IMG/VR virus record: IMGVR_UViG_3300029672_000003
DNA: 62,525 bases
Source of the DNA: a virus
Reading direction: 5' to 3' (one strand)
Shown here: positions 18,590 to 45,435 of the stretch, piece by piece
How the letters are laid out: every line of letters starts with the position of its first letter
Position numbering within the stretch: position 1 is the first letter of the stretch
Notes under the pieces: model-generated
What the model saw: the letters and a program-made list of their open reading frames with translations, nothing else
The model's database searches: none
What the model was told of the DNA's origin: nothing
Program-made: the position numbers and the translations under genes

Positions 18590-20323
18590 TCAATACCTCC
18601 TAAACGGATTTACTGCCGCTTCTACTTTGGCTACGTTATTTCCATTTGTCACTCTAAGCGCAAAGTTTGAAAATACATCCGGCACATCATCCAATTGCTT
18701 TTTACCGGAAACTGAATATCTCTTAAGAAGAGACATCATTACTCCATATGACTCATTTGGCTTATATAATGATGGGTCTTTAAATATAACGTGCTGCAAT
18801 ATCCAGTTAGAGCACTGGAAAATCCTTGCTTCCTTGTTTGTCTCCGTCGGTGTGTCAGTAATGTTACATATCCATCCTTTTTTTTCGACACGCTTGTTTA
18901 CTTCCATTGCGACACGGTCTCCGCCGGCGTTTCTCTCAAATTCACATTCCTGCACTTTGTTGTTTGCCAGAACGTTTGCTGCATTTTCATACTGCATCTC
19001 ATAATCTGCCGTGTTATCGCAAACACAATCTACACAGTAGTAATCCTCTCCGTATTTTTGCAATACCGGCAAAACAAAGTAATCCGTTCCTTTTCCCTTT
19101 GTATCGCATTGACCGGTTACAATCTCTGGCTCTCCATGTGGCAAATTAAGATACCGGCGTATTTTATCTTCCGGAAACAGCAATCCCTCTCGCTCAATCG
19201 GTTCCTGTTTGTAAAGACAGCGATATGATATGTCGTCCATCAATAATTGTTGATCTTCAAAAAACTCTTTTGTAAAACCAGAAAACTCATATTCAAAATT
19301 GCTTTCTCCTGTAACTGGGTCTACATCTGGTACCGCAATAACCTTTACTCTCGGATTGCCCTCGTACATATTTTGTATACGCCCTATAACGTCGTGTACG
19401 CTCCATCTTGTGGCAATATGTATTTCCTTGCAGTTCTTACCGTCCGTGTCCTGTATCTTTCTCTGGCGGGCATCTACGGCATATTTATCCCACAATTTAT
19501 CAAGGATAATGGGGTTCATTGCTTCTTCAATTCCGCCTATCATATCGTCAACCAGCAAGAACTTAGATGCCCTTACTTTACCGGCATTCTTACTACCAAC
19601 AGACGTACATTGTACGGATGGAAACGATTTGTACTTCCCGACATTAAACTGCTCCATCTTTGCATTTGTGCTCGTCACGGAAAGATCCGGGAAAATTTCA
19701 TTCCATGTATATTCTTCCGTATTTGTAACGATATCGTACACACCGTCATAGTACATTCTGGTAATATCTCCGCTATGCGAATAAAAAAGACTGAAATCTC
19801 TCGGAAACCATCCGGCAACAAGTGCGTGAAACATTTTTTCTACCGTTGTTTTGCCTGCTCCCGGAACAAGAGACACGCAAAGAATGTCATATTTATCATC
19901 AATCATGCCTTGCAAAGCCTGTGTAAGACCTATTTTGAGAAATTGCTTTCTTCTTGGCATGTAAAACCGCTCTTTAGGCTCTCTCTTCTTCTCCAAATAC
20001 TGGAAGGCACTATCCAAAACTTTGTTTTGCGCTTCCAGAAGCAAAATTCCGTAGTATTTGTCCAGAATTTCATAAGATACCTTGTTTTGGAATGAATATT
20101 TCTCTAAATCCCATGGTGTGCCACCTGTAGATTGAAAGATAAACTGCTCCGTCAGTTCTTTCGCTCTGGCAGAAACCTTTAATCCATACTCAACATCCTT
20201 TTCTGTCAGAATGGCTACCCTTGCCGCTTCTGCCATGGCATCCATAACCTGTTCATCAACGCCATGCACCTGTATGTAATTTTTATATCCATTTACTGTG
20301 GAAATTAGGCTTGAACTTGCCAA
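18590..20323 (-). CDS. terL: Terminase large subunit (TTG start)
   Basis: Walker A VPGAGKTT and Walker B FLLVDDMIG. C-terminal nuclease-like half. GGAGGTG lies 8 nt upstream of the TTG at 20323. Confidence 0.9.
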   Translation of the reverse strand: MASSSLISTVNGYKNYIQVHGVDEQVMDAMAEAARVAILTEKDVEYGLKVSARAKELTEQFIFQSTGGTPWDLEKYSFQNKVSYEILDKYYGILLLEAQNKVLDSAFQYLEKKREPKERFYMPRRKQFLKIGLTQALQGMIDDKYDILCVSLVPGAGKTTVEKMFHALVAGWFPRDFSLFYSHSGDITRMYYDGVYDIVTNTEEYTWNEIFPDLSVTSTNAKMEQFNVGKYKSFPSVQCTSVGSKNAGKVRASKFLLVDDMIGGIEEAMNPIILDKLWDKYAVDARQRKIQDTDGKNCKEIHIATRWSVHDVIGRIQNMYEGNPRVKVIAVPDVDPVTGESNFEYEFSGFTKEFFEDQQLLMDDISYRCLYKQEPIEREGLLFPEDKIRRYLNLPHGEPEIVTGQCDTKGKGTDYFVLPVLQKYGEDYYCVDCVCDNTADYEMQYENAANVLANNKVQECEFERNAGGDRVAMEVNKRVEKKGWICNITDTPTETNKEARIFQCSNWILQHVIFKDPSLYKPNESYGVMMSLLKRYSVSGKKQLDDVPDVFSNFALRVTNGNNVAKVEAAVNPFRRY

Positions 20324-21893: not shown

Positions 21894-22120
21894 TCTTCAA
21901 CCAACTTTCTGCCGCACATCGGACAAAATACAATATCAAAGTATCCTTTTGCCATACAGTAGTTTGAATAAATCACAATTCCGGGAACTTTGTCCCCTGT
22001 ATTCATCATAATTTGCGCATTTGTCAAATTCTTTTCATTTGCACACTTCTGAATGAGAATATTAGCGCCGAATATTCTGTTATTATCGTAATTCTTGCAA
22101 AATTTACACATTTCAATCAC
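21890..22120 (-). CDS. Small zinc-finger protein
   Basis: CKFCKN...CPMCGRK. Confidence 0.55.
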   Translation of the reverse strand: MIEMCKFCKNYDNNRIFGANILIQKCANEKNLTNAQIMMNTGDKVPGIVIYSNYCMAKGYFDIVFCPMCGRKLVEE

Positions 22121-22326
22121 TTCCTAATAAACCTAGGTTCACAATCTTCCAAAGTTGTTACTTCTATCATTTCCGGTTCATGTCTGCAAATCCTTCCGTT
22201 TAAATCAATATATGGTTCCAGTTCTATCTTCGTACGAAAACCATATGGAGTTTTGCAATAAGGGCACGCTTTTTTGTCACTTTCAATTGGTGCGCCACAA
22301 TTTACACAGTTTAAAATCATGCTCAT
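22117..22326 (-). CDS. Small zinc-ribbon protein
   Basis: CVNCGAP...CPYCKTP. Confidence 0.55.
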   Translation of the reverse strand: MSMILNCVNCGAPIESDKKACPYCKTPYGFRTKIELEPYIDLNGRICRHEPEMIEVTTLEDCEPRFIRK

Positions 22327-22365: not shown

Positions 22366-22474
22366 TTGATGTGGCGTGGATTTGCACCACGCAGGAGTGT
22401 ACAATCTGGTCATCTATGTTGTCGGTTTCAACCAATTCTCTACGACAATTCCGTTTACCTATTCCGTCACACAT
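22366..22474 (-). ncRNA. tRNA-like element of abnormal length (about 109 nt)
   Basis: T-arm-like hairpin CGTGG-TGCAAAT-CCACG. A 6-bp acceptor-like pairing GATGTG/CACATC. An internal class-II-type D arm (TCG-TAGAGAATTGGTTGAAAC-CGA). Duplicated ACGGAAT. I found no foldable anticodon arm. Confidence 0.3.
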
Positions 22475-22513
22475 CAACACCCAAGACATACCTAGGATTT
22501 TCGCTCGGGCAAA

Positions 22514-22595
22514 CGCCGTACACAGGATTTGAACCTGCAAGCCTTTTACAGCCAACGGTTTTCAAGACCGCTCCCTCACCACCCGGACATACGGC
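22514..22595 (-). tRNA. tRNA-Ser(UGA), class II
   Basis: Acceptor GCCGTAT/GTACGGC (one G-U). Anticodon arm GCGGT-CTTGAAA-ACCGT. T arm GCAGG-TTCAAAT-CCTGT. The variable arm is long but pairs poorly, and no CCA is encoded. Confidence 0.65.
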
Positions 22596-22599
22596 ATAG

Positions 22600-22684
22600 C
22601 GCAGTGTGTAGGACTCGAACCTACAAGGCGAACAAACGCCCGGCGGCTTAGCAAGCCGTTCCAATACCATTATGGGAACACTGC
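22600..22684 (-). tRNA. tRNA-Ser(GCU), class II
   Basis: Perfect acceptor GCAGTGT/ACACTGC. D stem CCA/TGG. Anticodon loop TTGCTAA. 5-bp variable stem GGGCG/CGCCT. T arm GTAGG-TTCGAGT-CCTAC. Confidence 0.85.
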
Positions 22685-22774
22685 ATCTTGATGGTGCGAT
22701 TTCTTAAACAACCCATCCATTACAACTGTCTACCACGCACCTGCCAAACAGTGTTTTTAGGGAGTTGAGTGAAA

Positions 22775-22864
22775 TAGGGAAGAGAGGAATCGAACCTCTA
22801 TTGTTTACCACTTGGGAACTGATTTACAGTCAGCCGCAACACCGCCAATCGTTGCCGCTTCCCC
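22775..22864 (-). tRNA. tRNA-Tyr(GUA), class II
   Basis: Acceptor GGGGAAG/CTTCCCT. D stem GCAAC/GTTGC. Anticodon arm GCTGA-CTGTAAA-TCAGT. Long variable arm. T arm AGAGG-TTCGATT-CCTCT. Confidence 0.8.
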
Positions 22865-22941
22865 GGAATGCGCGGACACCTCACTCCATATCTCTGTACG
22901 CGACCGCGCTACGCATACAGTATCAGATCAGCTCGGCACCA

Positions 22942-23028
22942 TCGGAACGGAAGGATTCGAACCTTCAATCCGGCTCTCATTGTTGTTTTCCGTGTACACG
23001 CCACTTTTACCAATTAAGATACGTTCCG
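22942..23028 (-). ncRNA. tRNA-like element with no canonical anticodon arm
   Basis: Perfect acceptor CGGAACG/CGTTCCG. T arm GAAGG-TTCGAAT-CCTTC. D loop AATTGGTAA. The anticodon position holds a 31-nt segment GGC-GTGTACACGGAAAACAACAATGAGA-GCC that includes the palindrome CGTGTACACG. Confidence 0.45.
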
Positions 23029-23363
23029 AAACCGCCATCAGACGGTTAGCAATAATGTTTATCGTGCCATGCGTTGCACTATCCAGTTTACAGCCTTTCA
23101 CTGGCAACTCATTGTTGTAGTTCTGGCACCGTGGGATAGGTTTCAGAACCATTGAAAGCTATATGGATTGTGCGCCCACAAATTCTGGAACCCCAAGTTT
23201 CAACACCATATAGACTTACATCAAATACCGCTATCTGCGGTGAACGCCACCGGACGGTCTCGCACCGCCCTTAACAGAATAGTCCTAGTGGCGAAAGGAT
23301 GTGTCATGAAAAACACCAAGAAGAATATCTTTTACGGAATGAATCTTTAAATCCATTCCTCCA
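23029..23363 (-). ncRNA. About 335 nt of non-coding, hairpin-rich sequence between two tRNA-like elements
   Basis: No ORF with an RBS. Nested inverted repeats: CTATATGG/CCATATAG enclosing TTGTG-GGCG-CACAA; GTGCCA/TGGCAC enclosing CCAGT...ACTGG; CGGTG-GCGTT-CACCG; GGAATG...CATTCC. It shares CTCATTGTTGT with 22976-22986 and GGCTGTAAA with tRNA-Ser(UGA). Confidence 0.35.
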
Positions 23364-23425
23364 GTGGAGCGACAGGAATCAAACCTGCGACCGATTGAAT
23401 GCTCTACCAACTGAGCTACGTTCCA
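23364..23425 (-). ncRNA. 62-nt tRNA-like element lacking an anticodon arm
   Basis: Acceptor TGGAACG/CGCTCCA (one A-C mismatch). Canonical TA-GCTC-AGTTGGTA-GAGC D arm. T arm GCAGG-TTTGATT-CCTGT. Only ATTCAATCGGTC (about 11 nt) sits where about 22 nt of anticodon arm plus variable loop belong. Confidence 0.5.
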
Positions 23426-23548
23426 CTATGGCATATTTGAATGCCGAAATGTAGGATTTTTATCTTATTTTATATTTGCTCACAGGCATCAGTATTGAAT
23501 CGCACGCCGAGTTATTCTGATTCAAGCTGTTTTGTCTGTGAGCTTAAG

Positions 23549-23713
23549 TTATACCGGATGCTCCGATTTCTCGCTCTGGTGCTCGGCGTCGCTATCCAGA
23601 TCGAGCAAATCTCCGGTGATGTCCGGTCCTTTTGATTTTGTTATATGTATTCTTTCCTCTGCACAAATGATAGGCAGCTGAAAGCAAATATCAGATATTG
23701 GACTATAAAACAT
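23549..23713 (-). CDS. 54-aa acidic micro-protein (MFYSPISDICFQLPIICAEERIHITKSKGPDITGDLLDLDSDAEHQSEKSEHPV)
   Basis: GGAGG lies 7 nt upstream of the ATG. It directly follows the 51-aa membrane ORF. Confidence 0.5.
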   Translation of the reverse strand: MFYSPISDICFQLPIICAEERIHITKSKGPDITGDLLDLDSDAEHQSEKSEHPV

Positions 23714-23717
23714 TCTG

Positions 23718-23873
23718 TTACCTCCACATCAGAAACATGTTCAGCAACAGCAACATCACAAGTACCCATAATGCAATTGCTGTTTCTTTGTCTTTGGATT
23801 CTCTGCCAGATACAAATAGTATCAGCATAAAAATAACATCCAGCGTCGATATAATCGTTTTAATAATTACCAT
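23718..23873 (-). CDS. 51-aa two-TM membrane peptide (MVIIKTIISTLDVIFMLILFVSGRESKDKETAIALWVLVMLLLLNMFLMWR)
   Basis: RBS GAGAGGAAAA before the ATG at 23873. The track ORF (71 aa) starts inside the tRNA-like element, so the internal start is preferred. Confidence 0.5.
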   Translation of the reverse strand: MVIIKTIISTLDVIFMLILFVSGRESKDKETAIALWVLVMLLLLNMFLMWR

Positions 23874-23893
23874 GGTTGTTTTCCTCTCACAAG

Positions 23894-23964
23894 TTTCTTT
23901 AGCAGGATTCGAACCTACGAATACTGGAATCAAAATCCAGTGCCTTACCGCTTGGCGATAGCGC
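23894..23964 (-). ncRNA. tRNA-Gln(UUG)-like element without an acceptor stem
   Basis: TC-GCC-AAGCGGTAA-GGC D arm. CTGGA-TTTTGAT-TCCAG anticodon arm. GTAGG-TTCGAAT-CCTGC T arm. The 5' AGCGCTA (part of the palindrome ATAGCGCTAT) cannot pair with the 3' TAAAGAA. Confidence 0.5.
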
Positions 23965-25695: not shown

Positions 25696-25841
25696 AATCT
25701 GTTCTGGATCCTGTTTTAATTAAATGATATATATACTTCTCCGTCTCCGTTGTAGTTCTCAATCGCCTTTTCTGCCTCCTCATAATTTGCACAGGCAGCA
25801 AACAAGCAACGGAAATGTGGTTATTGATCATTTGATCGAAG

Positions 25842-25940
25842 CGCAGATTTTACATCTTTCGGAAATTTTATAAATTTGAAATCTGCGTAGCATAGCCGAA
25901 ACGCCCTCAGGGGCTTCAGCCGCGGGATGGTCTCCCGGCT
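25842..25940. ncRNA. Unassigned structured segment: a 9-bp-stem hairpin (CGCAGATTT/AAATCTGCG) followed by a GC-rich multi-hairpin element
   Basis: AGCCGAAAC-GCCC-TCAG-GGGC-TTCAGCC-GCGGGA-TGG-TCTCCCGGCT. The only ORF over it (25821-26051) has no RBS and is implausible. Confidence 0.3.
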
Positions 25941-26047
25941 CTGACGATGGCAGAAGGGAAAAAATATGATCGTTGAAGAAAGAAAAAAGATAGCGTTGAT
26001 CTGTAGAGTATTAAAGATGTTATAAAAGCAAAAGCACCCGGGGGCGG

Positions 26048-26194
26048 TCATTTTTCTTTCCGAATAGTTTGCGCTGTAAAAATCAAAGACCTTGCGGCAT
26101 AGTCGCTCCTGCTTAATTCATCCATCAACTTTTCCCTTGTCATTTCTGGATTTGTCTTTTGAACATATCTTAACAATTCATCTACTTTGTCCAT
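26048..26194 (-). CDS. 48-aa protein, translationally coupled to the metallopeptidase gene
   Basis: TAATG overlap. MDKVDELLRYVQKTNPEMTREKLMDELSRSDYAARSLIFTAQTIRKEK. Confidence 0.5.
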   Translation of the reverse strand: MDKVDELLRYVQKTNPEMTREKLMDELSRSDYAARSLIFTAQTIRKEK

Positions 26195-44697: not shown

Positions 44698-45435
44698 TCA
44701 GAACGGACAAAGGTTCATATCAACCTCTAATCCACGTTCTGCCACGTAAACATCTGCCCCATATTTAACTGTTTCTTCTGTCTTTTGTTTGAATAGTGCG
44801 GGATCTCCGCTTTTATCTGATAAGTGAATTAGAACGACATTTCTCAATGCCGGGTTATCGTTAGTAGAAATAAATTTAAGTGTCGTATCAAGGCTCATGT
44901 GACCTCGTAATCTGTGCTCGTAATTTGGCTCTTCTCGGTTCACAAACTGCATATCGTAGTTGGCTTCCACCATGATGTGATTAACGTCCTTAAATCGCCA
45001 TTTGATGTATTCTGTGTCTGTTGCATACACCAAGCTGCCCATATCTGGGTGTTTAATATGAAATCCATAACACGGACACTCTGAACCATCAGAGTTATTA
45101 TGTAACCATCGCCTGTCTTTATTTTGATTTGGAAAAGTCCTCACTTCAAATGTTCCATACTTTTTCATGTCACAGGATTTGTAAAAATCCGTATTGTATG
45201 GTTTCCAAACTGGTATTCCTGATTTTCCATATTCTCCTATGTACTTTGCGTGGTCTCCGTGAGTATGGCTTGCCAGTACACCGACTATCTTTATCACATT
45301 GAAATCCAATTCTTTCTTGACTTCCATAAACGGCAACCCTGCTTCAATAATCAACGCTTCGCTTTCATTTTCCAGAATATAGCAGTTGCCGGATGAACCA
45401 GAACCTAAAACTTTAAGTCTCATTAAAGAACTCAC
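44698..45435 (-). CDS. MBL-fold metallo-hydrolase
   Basis: SHTHGDH motif. Beta-lactamase-fold pattern. Confidence 0.75.
   Translation of the reverse strand: MSSLMRLKVLGSGSSGNCYILENESEALIIEAGLPFMEVKKELDFNVIKIVGVLASHTHGDHAKYIGEYGKSGIPVWKPYNTDFYKSCDMKKYGTFEVRTFPNQNKDRRWLHNNSDGSECPCYGFHIKHPDMGSLVYATDTEYIKWRFKDVNHIMVEANYDMQFVNREEPNYEHRLRGHMSLDTTLKFISTNDNPALRNVVLIHLSDKSGDPALFKQKTEETVKYGADVYVAERGLEVDMNLCPF

What the first reader, a model, noticed from the sequence alone, without database searches (positions are those of the whole stretch)
22366..23964. tRNA block mixes foldable class-II tRNAs with tRNA-like elements each missing a different arm
A 1.6 kb non-coding block on the minus strand holds three tRNAs that I can fold by hand, all with long variable arms: Ser-UGA at 22514-22595, Ser-GCU at 22600-22684 and Tyr-GUA at 22775-22864.

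It also holds at least four tRNA look-alikes, each with a different, clean defect:
- 23364-23425 has a 6 of 7 acceptor stem, a textbook D arm (GCTC-AGTTGGTA-GAGC) and a T arm. Only about 11 nt sit where about 22 nt of anticodon arm plus variable loop belong.
- 23894-23964 is a tRNA-Gln(UUG) with intact D, anticodon and T arms. Its 5' end AGCGCTA cannot pair with its 3' end TAAAGAA, so there is no acceptor stem.
- 22942-23028 has perfect acceptor and T arms. A 31-nt insert containing the palindrome CGTGTACACG occupies the anticodon position.
- 22366-22474 is about 109 nt long with a T-arm-like hairpin and an internal class-II D arm.

Random decay would be expected to blur all arms together. Here each element loses one functional module while the others stay sharp. 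That pattern fits non-decoding roles, for example decoys or competitors for host tRNA-targeting nucleases, modification enzymes or synthetases, or processing signals for the downstream micro-ORFs. This is inference; decay of a formerly larger tRNA array is the null hypothesis.
Basis: partly seen in the sequence, partly recalled or inferred. Interest (0 to 1): 0.75.

Follow-up and report, generated by a model that had tools for sequence, protein, structure and literature searches.

The report
Phage tRNA island with tRNA mimics
Upstream of its DNA-packaging genes, this gut phage carries three working tRNAs, two tRNA genes broken by small deletions, and two tRNA-shaped RNAs that cannot decode; one of those two belongs to a large family of phage RNAs that I did not find in Rfam or in the papers I searched.

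Summary

**Working tRNAs.** ARAGORN calls Ser-UGA, Ser-GCU and Tyr-GUA.

**Two look-alikes are decay products.**
- 23364-23425 is tRNA-Ile(UAU) minus 11 nt. Most relatives carry the intact tRNA at the same place.
- 23894-23964 is a tRNA-Gln(UUG) whose acceptor strands do not pair. Other phages have the same body with a paired acceptor.

**Two look-alikes are not decay products.**
- 22942-23028 sits in a slot that held a tRNA-shaped element without a normal anticodon arm in all 75 copies recovered by the flank pattern.
- 22366-22476 belongs to a large tRNA-Leu-like family:
  - more than 200 distinct sequences;
  - found in phages, and in the genomes of 117 species, mostly Bacillota;
  - 97.8% of cells paired, with heavy covariation;
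  - no ARAGORN call and no Rfam family;
  - lies upstream of HNH and terminase genes.

**Likely mechanism (inferred).** Host RNase P and RNase Z recognise the tRNA upper half. They cut the late-operon leader and release stable RNAs that cannot decode.

Its "designed decoys" reading is partly supported: half of the elements are decay, as its null hypothesis said. What the RNAs do is untested.

The parts
23894..23964 (-). tRNA-Gln(UUG) pseudogene. The D, anticodon and T arms are intact. The acceptor strands AGCGCTA and TAAAGAA do not pair.
   Evidence: The Rfam tRNA hit covers model positions 6-65 only. The same broken allele is in 50 of 78 related copies, and an intact allele (TGCTCGT/ACGGGCA) is in about 27. 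The same body with a paired acceptor occurs in L429 and L430/431.
23718..23873 (-). Small gene orfA: 51 aa, with two hydrophobic stretches by my reading of the sequence and a ribosome-binding site GAGAGGAAAACAACC.
   Evidence: Translation. tblastn finds it in 50 related loci at 97-100% identity (run with coordinates one base off, so indicative only). A diverged homologue follows the intact Gln allele.
23549..23713 (-). Small gene orfB: 54 aa, with a ribosome-binding site GGAGG.
   Evidence: tblastn finds it in 77 of 80 related loci at 48-96% amino-acid identity.
23364..23425 (-). tRNA-Ile(UAU) with an 11-nt deletion that removes the anticodon arm. The window copy also carries a C-to-T change in the T loop.
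   Evidence: Aligned with intact tRNA-Ile(UAU) in identical flanks. The deletion junction is found in only two other contigs.
23029..23363 (-). Conserved structured spacer RNA of unknown kind.
   Evidence: Fold z-score -3.2. 15 predicted pairs show changes on both sides across 12 sequences. No Rfam hit.
22942..23028 (-). 87-nt tRNA-frame element in slot 2. It has acceptor stem CGGAACG/CGTTCCG, a D arm and a T arm. About 30 nt that contain no anticodon stem-loop replace the anticodon arm.
   Evidence: Rfam tRNA 41 bits, with 30 nt in place of 17. Among relatives the slot holds 87-, 93-, 98- and 106-nt types, plus a 69-nt type in different flanks, and never a canonical tRNA. A pattern search gives many such frames in IMG/VR.
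22775..22864 (-). tRNA-Tyr(GUA), class II, atypical.
   Evidence: ARAGORN. Conserved in 51 related loci.
22599..22684 (-). tRNA-Ser(GCU).
   Evidence: ARAGORN. Rfam 49.3 bits.
22513..22596 (-). tRNA-Ser(UGA).
   Evidence: ARAGORN. Rfam 32.6 bits.
22366..22476 (-). Member of the tRNA-Leu-like RNA family. It has a 7-bp acceptor stem, UG, a 3-bp D stem with loop GAAUAGGUAAA, a 58-nt variable middle, a 6-bp T stem with loop UGCAAAU, and A at the discriminator. It ends 39 nt upstream of the first late ORF.
   Evidence: Model R1 gives 63.5 bits, E=1e-13, as the only hit in the window. Stems covary in relatives and across the family.
22117..22326 (-). First ORF downstream of the island: a 69-aa zinc-ribbon protein at the head of the module that leads to terminase (18590-20323).
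   Evidence: Pfam zinc-ribbon matches, all below their curated cut-offs, and terminase RNase H-like domains.

Best explanation
The block is the RNA-gene island of a temperate gut siphovirus. It lies between the regulatory genes and the packaging genes.

**Three kinds of element**
1. Three working class-II tRNAs.
2. Two tRNA genes disabled by short deletions or replacements: Ile-UAU lacks 11 nt, and Gln-UUG has lost acceptor pairing. These are pseudogenes produced by the rapid recombination and deletion seen across this array.
3. Two tRNA-shaped RNAs that are kept without an anticodon loop. One is the 87-nt frame element in slot 2. The other is a 111-nt member of a large tRNA-Leu-like family.

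**Mechanism (inferred, not shown)**
- The island is transcribed together with the downstream late genes.
- Host RNase P, RNase Z and the CCA-adding enzyme recognise the conserved upper half: acceptor stem, T arm and the D/T-loop elbow.
- Their cuts define the 5' end of the late mRNA and release stable small RNAs.
- Those RNAs cannot decode. The 13-bp acceptor-plus-T helix and the G at T-loop position 55 would probably keep the Leu-like RNA away from EF-Tu and the ribosome.

Whether the released RNA has a further role, as a decoy or a cofactor, is open.
For: **Shown**
- The three tRNAs.
- Intact counterparts for the Ile and Gln elements.
- A mosaic array, including chimeras formed by recombination between tRNA frames.
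- Slot 2 is never canonical in 75 copies. Acceptor pairs 3-70 and 5-68 change on both sides between the 69-nt type and the 87/93-nt types.
- For the Leu-like family:
  - 114 distinct sequences in the viral loci, more than 200 once the genome loci are added, and 117 species genomes;
  - 97.8% of cells paired, and 231 cells changed on both sides against 58 in shuffles, with slid controls at 36-45%;
  - all 7 acceptor pairs and 4 of 6 T-stem pairs covary;
  - ARAGORN of 210 members as tRNA;
  - no Rfam family matches.
- Position of the Leu-like family:
  - on the same strand and upstream of HNH, terS and terL;
  - the same in 55 genome loci;
  - between rinA and HNH in phage Sha1.
- A terminator-like site follows in only 7 of 169 members. 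T follows the discriminator in 52%.

**Inferred**
- The parts that stay fixed (acceptor helix geometry, T loop, D loop) are the ones tRNA-processing enzymes use.
- The part that decoding needs is free to vary from 45 to 75 nt.
Against: - There are no expression or end-mapping data.
- The near-invariant D-arm and T-loop sequences are more constrained than RNase P or RNase Z recognition alone would need. This hints at another, specific partner.
- The middle of the window's 87-nt element has no stable fold: z-score -0.6 for the whole element. It looks like a collapsed form of the 93-nt type, so this copy may itself be degenerating.
- The relatives are nearly clonal (terminase 97-99% identical). 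Persistence of the 87-nt type and of the broken Gln allele therefore says little about selection.
- The discriminator is A in only 57% of family members, so a role that depends on leucylation is not supported.
Confidence: 0.6

Rival explanations
1. Pure decay. All four look-alikes are pseudogenes of a formerly larger tRNA array, and none has a function.
For: - Two of the four demonstrably are pseudogenes.
- The array gains and loses genes quickly.
- The 87-nt element has an unstructured middle.
- Its D arm resembles that of tRNA-Met(CAU) genes of other phages.
Against: - The 111-nt element belongs to a family of more than 200 distinct sequences with overwhelming covariation and a fixed genomic position.
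- Slot 2 holds an element without a normal anticodon arm in every relative sampled. Compensatory acceptor changes separate its variants.
Confidence: 0.12
2. Mimics of the tRNA upper half that act in trans. After processing and CCA addition, the RNAs without anticodons would do one of two things. They could soak up host factors that act on acceptor ends, such as toxSAS/CapRel-type pyrophosphokinases, MenT/AbiE-type nucleotidyltransferases or acceptor-stem nucleases. Or they could carry an amino acid for a non-ribosomal transfer. Either role would be timed with late gene expression.
For: - Acceptor stem, elbow and T loop are conserved while the anticodon region is dispensable.
- The 7+6-bp helix and G55 could act as signals that keep the RNA out of translation (inference).
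- The near-invariant tRNA-Leu-type D arm suggests a specific protein partner.
- Toxins that read the acceptor stem exist (PMC11559606).
- Phages use tRNAs against defence systems (10.1101/2023.03.15.532788).
- Phage Mu's Mom enzyme uses Gly-tRNA to modify DNA (PMC13219725).
Against: - No partner gene is conserved next to the element other than the packaging genes.
- The discriminator base is not fixed.
- No CCA is encoded.
- Nothing is known about abundance.
- This window encodes no recognisable tRNA enzyme.
Confidence: 0.2
3. They are unusual but working decoders: tRNAs with short introns, or with expanded anticodon loops, that are spliced or used for recoding.
For: - ARAGORN labels some relatives of the frame elements as tRNAs: "Arg(acg)" and "Lys(ctt)", and once an undetermined type.
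- The 93-nt type has a hairpin with an 8-nt loop.
Against: - Those calls rest on mismatched 4-bp stems.
- ARAGORN's intron mode gives only spurious composites in the window.
- 0 of 210 Leu-like members are called tRNA. The first hairpin in the minimum-free-energy fold of the middle mostly has a 3-6-nt loop.
- There is no group I intron hit.
- No RNA ligase or splicing endonuclease was seen among the window proteins scanned against Pfam.
Confidence: 0.04
4. The conserved elements work at the DNA level, as part of a cos/pac packaging site or an attachment site, and not as RNA.
For: - The element always lies next to the packaging genes.
- In phiJL-1 it ends 3 nt from the end of the linear record.
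Against: - Helices are kept by compensatory changes, including G-U pairs on one strand only.
- The tRNA D-loop and T-loop motifs are invariant. That is the signature of an RNA fold.
- The element is not next to the integrase.
Confidence: 0.04

Closest known systems
Plant mitochondrial t-elements, and mascRNA/menRNA from MALAT1 and MEN-beta
   Same: These are tRNA-shaped structures embedded in longer transcripts. RNase P and RNase Z cut at them to make mRNA or lncRNA ends, and a small non-decoding tRNA-like RNA is released (PMC1920247, PMC11693755). That is the mechanism proposed here. The elements here also lack their own terminators and sit in an operon leader.
   Different: Those systems are eukaryotic or organellar, with no sequence relation to these elements. 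Here the D-arm and T-loop sequences are nearly invariant across hundreds of phages. Processing is inferred, not shown.
Phage T4 species 1 and species 2 stable RNAs (rnaC, rnaD) in the T4 tRNA cluster (from my own knowledge; I did not retrieve a paper)
   Same: Small stable RNAs of unknown function, encoded within a phage tRNA gene cluster and processed along with the tRNAs.
   Different: I could not compare sequence or structure here. The T4 RNAs are not known to belong to a family that lies upstream of terminase genes in Bacillota phages.
Bacterial Y RNA-like YrlA (Rfam RF02553)
   Same: A non-decoding RNA that mimics a tRNA with acceptor-like, D and T arms. It also occurs in phages.
   Different: From my own knowledge, YrlA has the permuted layout: its ends lie on the anticodon side and a loop closes the acceptor stem. 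It pairs with Rsr/Ro. Here the ends are at the acceptor stem. The block gives no YrlA hit at E<10, and no Rsr-type protein was seen among the window proteins scanned against Pfam.
GOLLD, ROOL and Drum RNAs
   Same: GOLLD and ROOL are non-coding RNAs of unknown function that cluster with tRNAs in prophages (PMC5737381). A Drum RNA lies next to a Leu-like element in L229, and rli62 and mcrA motifs flank one in L249.
   Different: They are different folds, and GOLLD and ROOL are much larger. None matches these elements in Rfam.
Canonical bacterial tRNA-Leu
   Same: The D arm GGCGGAAUAGGUAGACGC is close to the tRNA-Leu D arm as I recall it. Both have a 3-bp D stem, a 7-bp acceptor stem and a T arm with a T-loop fold.
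   Different: The family has no anticodon stem-loop, a 45-75-nt variable middle, a 6-bp T stem, T loop UGCAAAU with G at position 55, and a variable discriminator. ARAGORN calls none of them tRNA.

Membership tests
Canonical tRNA (Rfam RF00005 / ARAGORN) | Complete cloverleaf: 7-bp acceptor stem, D arm, 5-bp anticodon stem with a 7-nt loop, and T arm. | tested here: met
   Met for Ser-UGA, Ser-GCU and Tyr-GUA (Rfam gives 32.6, 49.3 and 26.5 bits). Tyr falls below Rfam's gathering score.
Canonical tRNA (Rfam RF00005 / ARAGORN) | The same cloverleaf, asked of the four look-alikes. | tested here: not met
   - 23894-23964: no acceptor pairing; the hit covers model positions 6-65 only.
- 23364-23425: the anticodon arm is absent.
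- 22942-23028: 30 nt without an anticodon stem-loop.
- 22366-22476: no Rfam tRNA hit at E<10.
- ARAGORN calls none of them.
tRNA-Leu-like phage RNA family (unnamed; model R1 built here) | Full-length match to a covariance model built from other phages and genomes, with the window's type excluded. | tested here: met
   22366-22476 scores 63.5 bits, E=1e-13, over model positions 1-112. The other tRNA-like elements in the block score 11.7 bits or less.
tRNA-Leu-like phage RNA family (unnamed; model R1 built here) | A D arm of the GCG-GAAWAGGUARA-CGC type, T loop UGCAAAU, and a 7-bp acceptor stem stacked on a 6-bp T stem. | tested here: met
   The window has ACG-GAAUAGGUAAA-CGG, so one D-stem pair is A/G. 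Its T arm is GCGUGG-UGCAAAU-CCACGC and its acceptor is UGAUGUG/CACAUCA.
tRNA-Leu-like phage RNA family (unnamed; model R1 built here) | Lies upstream of the packaging genes (HNH, terS, terL) on the same strand. | tested here: met
   In the window it lies 39 nt upstream of the first ORF of the module that ends in terminase 18590-20323. For the family.
tmRNA | A tRNA-like domain with a G3-U70 pair, pseudoknots and a tag reading frame. | tested here: not met
   ARAGORN's tRNA and tmRNA search finds no tmRNA. There is no Rfam tmRNA hit in the block. Acceptor pair 3-70 is G-C in the frame elements.
Y RNA-like YrlA | A permuted tRNA mimic whose ends form an Rsr-binding stem, with an Rsr/Ro gene nearby. 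| tested here: not met
   No YrlA hit at E<10 in the block. The ends lie at the acceptor stem. No Rsr-type protein was seen among the window proteins scanned.
tRNA gene with a group I intron | A self-splicing intron of about 200 nt or more in the anticodon loop, with exons that rebuild an anticodon arm. | tested here: not met
   No Intron_gpI hit at E<10. The inserts are 30-55 nt. ARAGORN's intron-mode calls are composites of separate elements.
t-element / mascRNA-type processing signal | Cleavage by RNase P at the 5' border and RNase Z at the 3' border, releasing a stable tRNA-like RNA. | not testable with these tools
   Only indirect support: no terminator follows (7 of 169), T follows the discriminator in 52%, and the upper half of the tRNA shape is conserved.
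T4 species 1/2 stable RNAs | Sequence or structure homology to rnaC or rnaD. | not tested
   I did not retrieve reference sequences. The resemblance is recalled from memory only.

The most novel reading that the evidence does not exclude
The tRNA-Leu-like family, and perhaps the CGGAACG-frame elements, could be a new class of phage-encoded tRNA mimics that cannot decode. They would be made together with the late genes, trimmed and CCA-tailed by host enzymes, and kept off the ribosome by their 13-bp acceptor-plus-T helix and G55. They would then act in trans. One option is a sponge for defence toxins that attack tRNA acceptor ends. Another is a dedicated aminoacyl carrier or cofactor for a phage process linked to packaging.
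Probability: 0.2. Interest if true: 0.9.

Novelty: new variant of a known kind. Interest (0 to 1): 0.68.

Why it matters
- Phage tRNA genes are usually read as codon-usage helpers or as escapes from anticodon nucleases. This block shows that the same islands also hold tRNA-shaped RNAs that have given up decoding.
- One of them belongs to a family that is spread through phages and prophages of Bacillota (lactobacilli, bacilli, gut Clostridia). It always lies at the head of the packaging operon. It is absent from Rfam 15, and I did not find it in the papers I searched.
- That gives a well-defined and abundant RNA to test in cultured systems, for example L. plantarum phages phiJL-1 and Sha1.
- It may explain how late transcripts get their ends, or reveal a new use of tRNA mimicry in the conflict between phage and host.
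- There is also a practical warning. Half of the odd elements in such arrays are plain deletion pseudogenes, so comparison with relatives is needed before a function is proposed.

Tried and rejected
- **Rfam at permissive thresholds** on the block and on 20 other loci. The elements hit only the tRNA model, or nothing.
- **ARAGORN with introns and a relaxed threshold.** It gave only spurious composites, such as "tRNA-Asp" built from two separate elements with a 405-nt "intron".
- **A single split tRNA.** I considered that the deleted Ile element plus the 87-nt element form one tRNA with a large intron. I rejected this because relatives have a complete tRNA-Ile at the first site.
- **Antisense targets** for the variable middles within the phage. 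The longest complementary runs are 9-10 nt, no better than shuffled sequences.
- **A canonical orthologue of the 87-nt element.** None was found. Its D arm matches only tRNA-Met(CAU) genes of unrelated phages.
- **The host.** No window-like prophage was found among the genome loci fetched, and annotated phage records match only over single tRNAs.
- **Literature.** Searches on tRNA-like RNAs in phages, terminase leaders, tRNA mimics and anti-defence found no description of the family.
- **Leucylation identity.** The discriminator is A in only 57% of members, so this is not supported.
- **A conserved partner protein.** Only packaging genes and RinA-like activators recur next to the element.
Full report
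**What the window is.** It is a gut phage genome with nearly all genes on the minus strand.
- Pfam finds a terminase (18590-20323), an SPP1-type portal, an integrase, Rha and AntA regulators, DnaB, SSB and a sigma factor.
- More than 595 IMG/VR stretches encode a relative of the terminase. The best 80, at 97-99% amino-acid identity, were fetched as L001-L080.

**Checking the observation.**
- ARAGORN finds exactly three tRNAs, all on the minus strand: Ser-UGA 22513-22596, Ser-GCU 22599-22684 and Tyr-GUA 22775-22864.
  - 23900-23960: 46 bits, model positions 6-65 only.
  - 23364-23425: 39.6 bits, with the anticodon arm missing.
  - 22942-23028: 41 bits, with 30 nt where 17 belong.
- The fourth element (22366-22474) has no Rfam hit at E<10.
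- The block is not wholly non-coding.
  - Two small genes lie between the Gln and Ile elements. OrfA is 23873-23718, 51 aa. OrfB is 23713-23549, 54 aa, and is conserved in 77 of 80 relatives at 48-96% identity.
  - The 335-nt spacer 23029-23363 folds better than shuffled versions (z = -3.2). Across 12 sequences, 15 predicted pairs show changes on both sides.

**The array is mosaic.** Across the 80 related loci ARAGORN finds different mixes of Gln, Ile(UAU), Tyr, Glu, Ser(GCU) and Ser(UGA), plus dubious "Arg(acg)" and "Lys(ctt)" calls. Chimeras exist: in L079 and L047 the 5' part of tRNA-Ile is fused to the 3' part or flank of the next tRNA frame.

**Element 23364-23425: decay.**
- It sits in the same flanks as 55 copies of an intact tRNA-Ile(UAU) in the relatives. 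It differs by an 11-nt deletion that removes the anticodon stem-loop.
- The deletion junction occurs in only two other IMG/VR contigs, L199 and L200. They match the window at only 85-96% identity over the aligned stretches.
- Those two copies keep a normal T loop (TTCGATT). The window copy has TTTGATT and a G-U pair in the T stem.
- The element changes about as fast as its flanks.
- I read it as a pseudogene allele that has persisted in a minor sub-lineage.

**Element 23894-23964: decay.**
- Two diverged alleles cover orf109, the Gln gene and orfA (about 70% identity).
- About 27 of 78 copies carry an intact tRNA-Gln with acceptor TGCTCGT/ACGGGCA. 50 carry the window type, AGCGCTA/TAAAGAA.
- The arms of the two alleles differ by compensatory changes. 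The window-type body was therefore a working tRNA for most of its history.
- An almost identical body with a paired acceptor exists in L429 and in L430/431.
- Compared with L430, the window allele looks as if about 9 nt, the 3' acceptor strand, were deleted. That step is my inference.

**Element 22942-23028: not simple decay.**
- Its acceptor stem (CGGAACG/CGTTCCG) matches that of the lineage's tRNA-Ile.
- A flank-anchored pattern recovered 75 copies of its slot, which lies 77 nt upstream of tRNA-Tyr. The slot holds an 87-, 93-, 98- or 106-nt element, and never a canonical tRNA. A related 69-nt type sits in different flanks.
- The 69-nt type differs from the 87- and 93-nt types by changes on both sides at acceptor pairs 3-70 and 5-68.
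- The window's palindrome CGTGTACACG matches hairpin 1 of the 93-nt type (CGTG-TGYTAATT-CACG) with the loop collapsed. Its middle has no stable fold. This copy may therefore be a weakened variant.
- The pattern CGGAACGTA-N62-90-CCGTTCCGA gives more than 118 IMG/VR stretches. They include 38 distinct tRNA frames with unrelated 30-55-nt middles, many of them sitting in the tRNA arrays of unrelated phages.
- The Ile slot itself has 85- and 89-nt alleles, in which an extended hairpin replaces the anticodon arm.
- No canonical orthologue of the 87-nt element was found.

**Element 22366-22476: a large family.**
- In relatives its acceptor stem, T stem, inner hairpin and D stem all covary.
Most are Bacillota: Lactobacillaceae, Bacillus, Paenibacillus, Weissella, Lachnospiraceae and Oscillospiraceae.
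- The architecture, from 5' to 3', is:
  - a 7-bp acceptor stem that varies freely;
  - UG;
  - a 45-75-nt variable middle;
  - usually CAUG;
  - a 6-bp T stem with loop UGCAAAU;
  - the 3' acceptor strand;
  - a discriminator that is A in 57% of members.
- On 59 diverse members, with the window type excluded, 97.8% of cells pair. 231 cells are changed on both sides, against 58 in shuffles. Slid controls pair at 36-45%.
- A covariance model of these sequences hits the window once, at 63.5 bits and E=1e-13.
- The same model finds up to three members per locus in the relatives. It also finds the cultured phages phiJL-1 (75.5 bits) and Sha1 (70.1 bits).
- ARAGORN calls none of 210 members a tRNA.
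- No Rfam family matches. In two loci the element is flanked by Rfam hits to rli62, mcrA or Drum.

**Genomic position of the family.**
- The element lies on the same strand as, and upstream of, HNH (median +564 nt), terS (Terminase_2, +1.6 kb) and terL.
- 55 of the 117 genome loci (76 of which extend more than 2.5 kb downstream) show a packaging gene downstream on the same strand.
- In Sha1 it lies between rinA and HNH.
- Only 7 of 169 members have a terminator-like site downstream. T follows the discriminator in 52%. Promoter -10-like boxes are mildly enriched just upstream.

**Interpretation.**
Its alternative (kept, non-decoding tRNA-like RNAs) holds for the 111-nt element and probably for slot 2.
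- What is conserved is the tRNA upper half and elbow. What decoding needs is dispensable.
- Together with the leader position and the lack of terminators, this best fits processing signals of the kind known as t-elements in plant mitochondria, or as mascRNA (PMC1920247, PMC11693755). Such signals also release a stable RNA.
- The near-invariant loops, the 13-bp helix and G55 leave room for a role in trans, as a decoy or a carrier. That is the more novel reading, and it is untested.
- Literature searches found no description of the family.

Noticed in passing
window 25894-25959 (+): A type II hammerhead ribozyme (Rfam 54.4 bits, gathering score 37). It lies on the strand opposite to nearly all genes and overlaps the minus-strand ORF 25821-26051.
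   Followed up: no
window 23029-23363 (-): A conserved structured RNA of about 270-335 nt between the deleted tRNA-Ile and the 87-nt element. Its fold z-score is -3.2, 15 predicted pairs show changes on both sides across 12 sequences, and it has no Rfam hit. Its kind is unknown.
   Followed up: partly
window 23873-23718 and 23713-23549 (-): Two conserved small genes (51 aa with two hydrophobic stretches by my reading, and 54 aa) lie inside what was described as a non-coding block.
   Followed up: yes
L001-L080, e.g. L003:7523-7665, L030:2327-2484, L011:7787-7884: Relatives carry further tRNA-like elements that the window lacks. These are Leu-like members of 98, 143-145 and 158-159 nt, and a 104-nt acceptor-plus-T-arm element (AGCGGTA...TGCCGCT, 37 copies) with a variant that carries compensatory changes.
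   Followed up: partly
L079 about 1933-2060; L047 about 821-950: Chimeric genes in which the 5' part of tRNA-Ile(UAU) is joined to the 3' part or flank of the slot-2 element. They show recombination between related tRNA frames that deletes what lay between them.
   Followed up: partly
L091:3315-3366, L140:4484-4535: Twister-P1-like ribozyme hits (about 57 bits, below the gathering score of 67.2). The L140 hit lies beside tRNAs and a tRNA frame of an unrelated phage.
   Followed up: no
L438 (phiJL-1, AY236756.1 36563-36671 of 36674): In this cultured Lactobacillus phage the Leu-like element ends 3 nt before the right end of the linear record. That may place it next to the physical genome end or cos site.
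   Followed up: partly
L222, L296, L007:3802-3946: In some Leu-like members the variable middle carries a second hairpin that looks like a T arm, for example ACGGTTCAATTCCGT.
   Followed up: no
window 44698-45435 (-): A metallo-beta-lactamase-fold protein (Pfam Lactamase_B_2, which as I recall also covers RNase Z) in the replication module. It is probably DNA-related, and nothing links it to the tRNA island.
   Followed up: no
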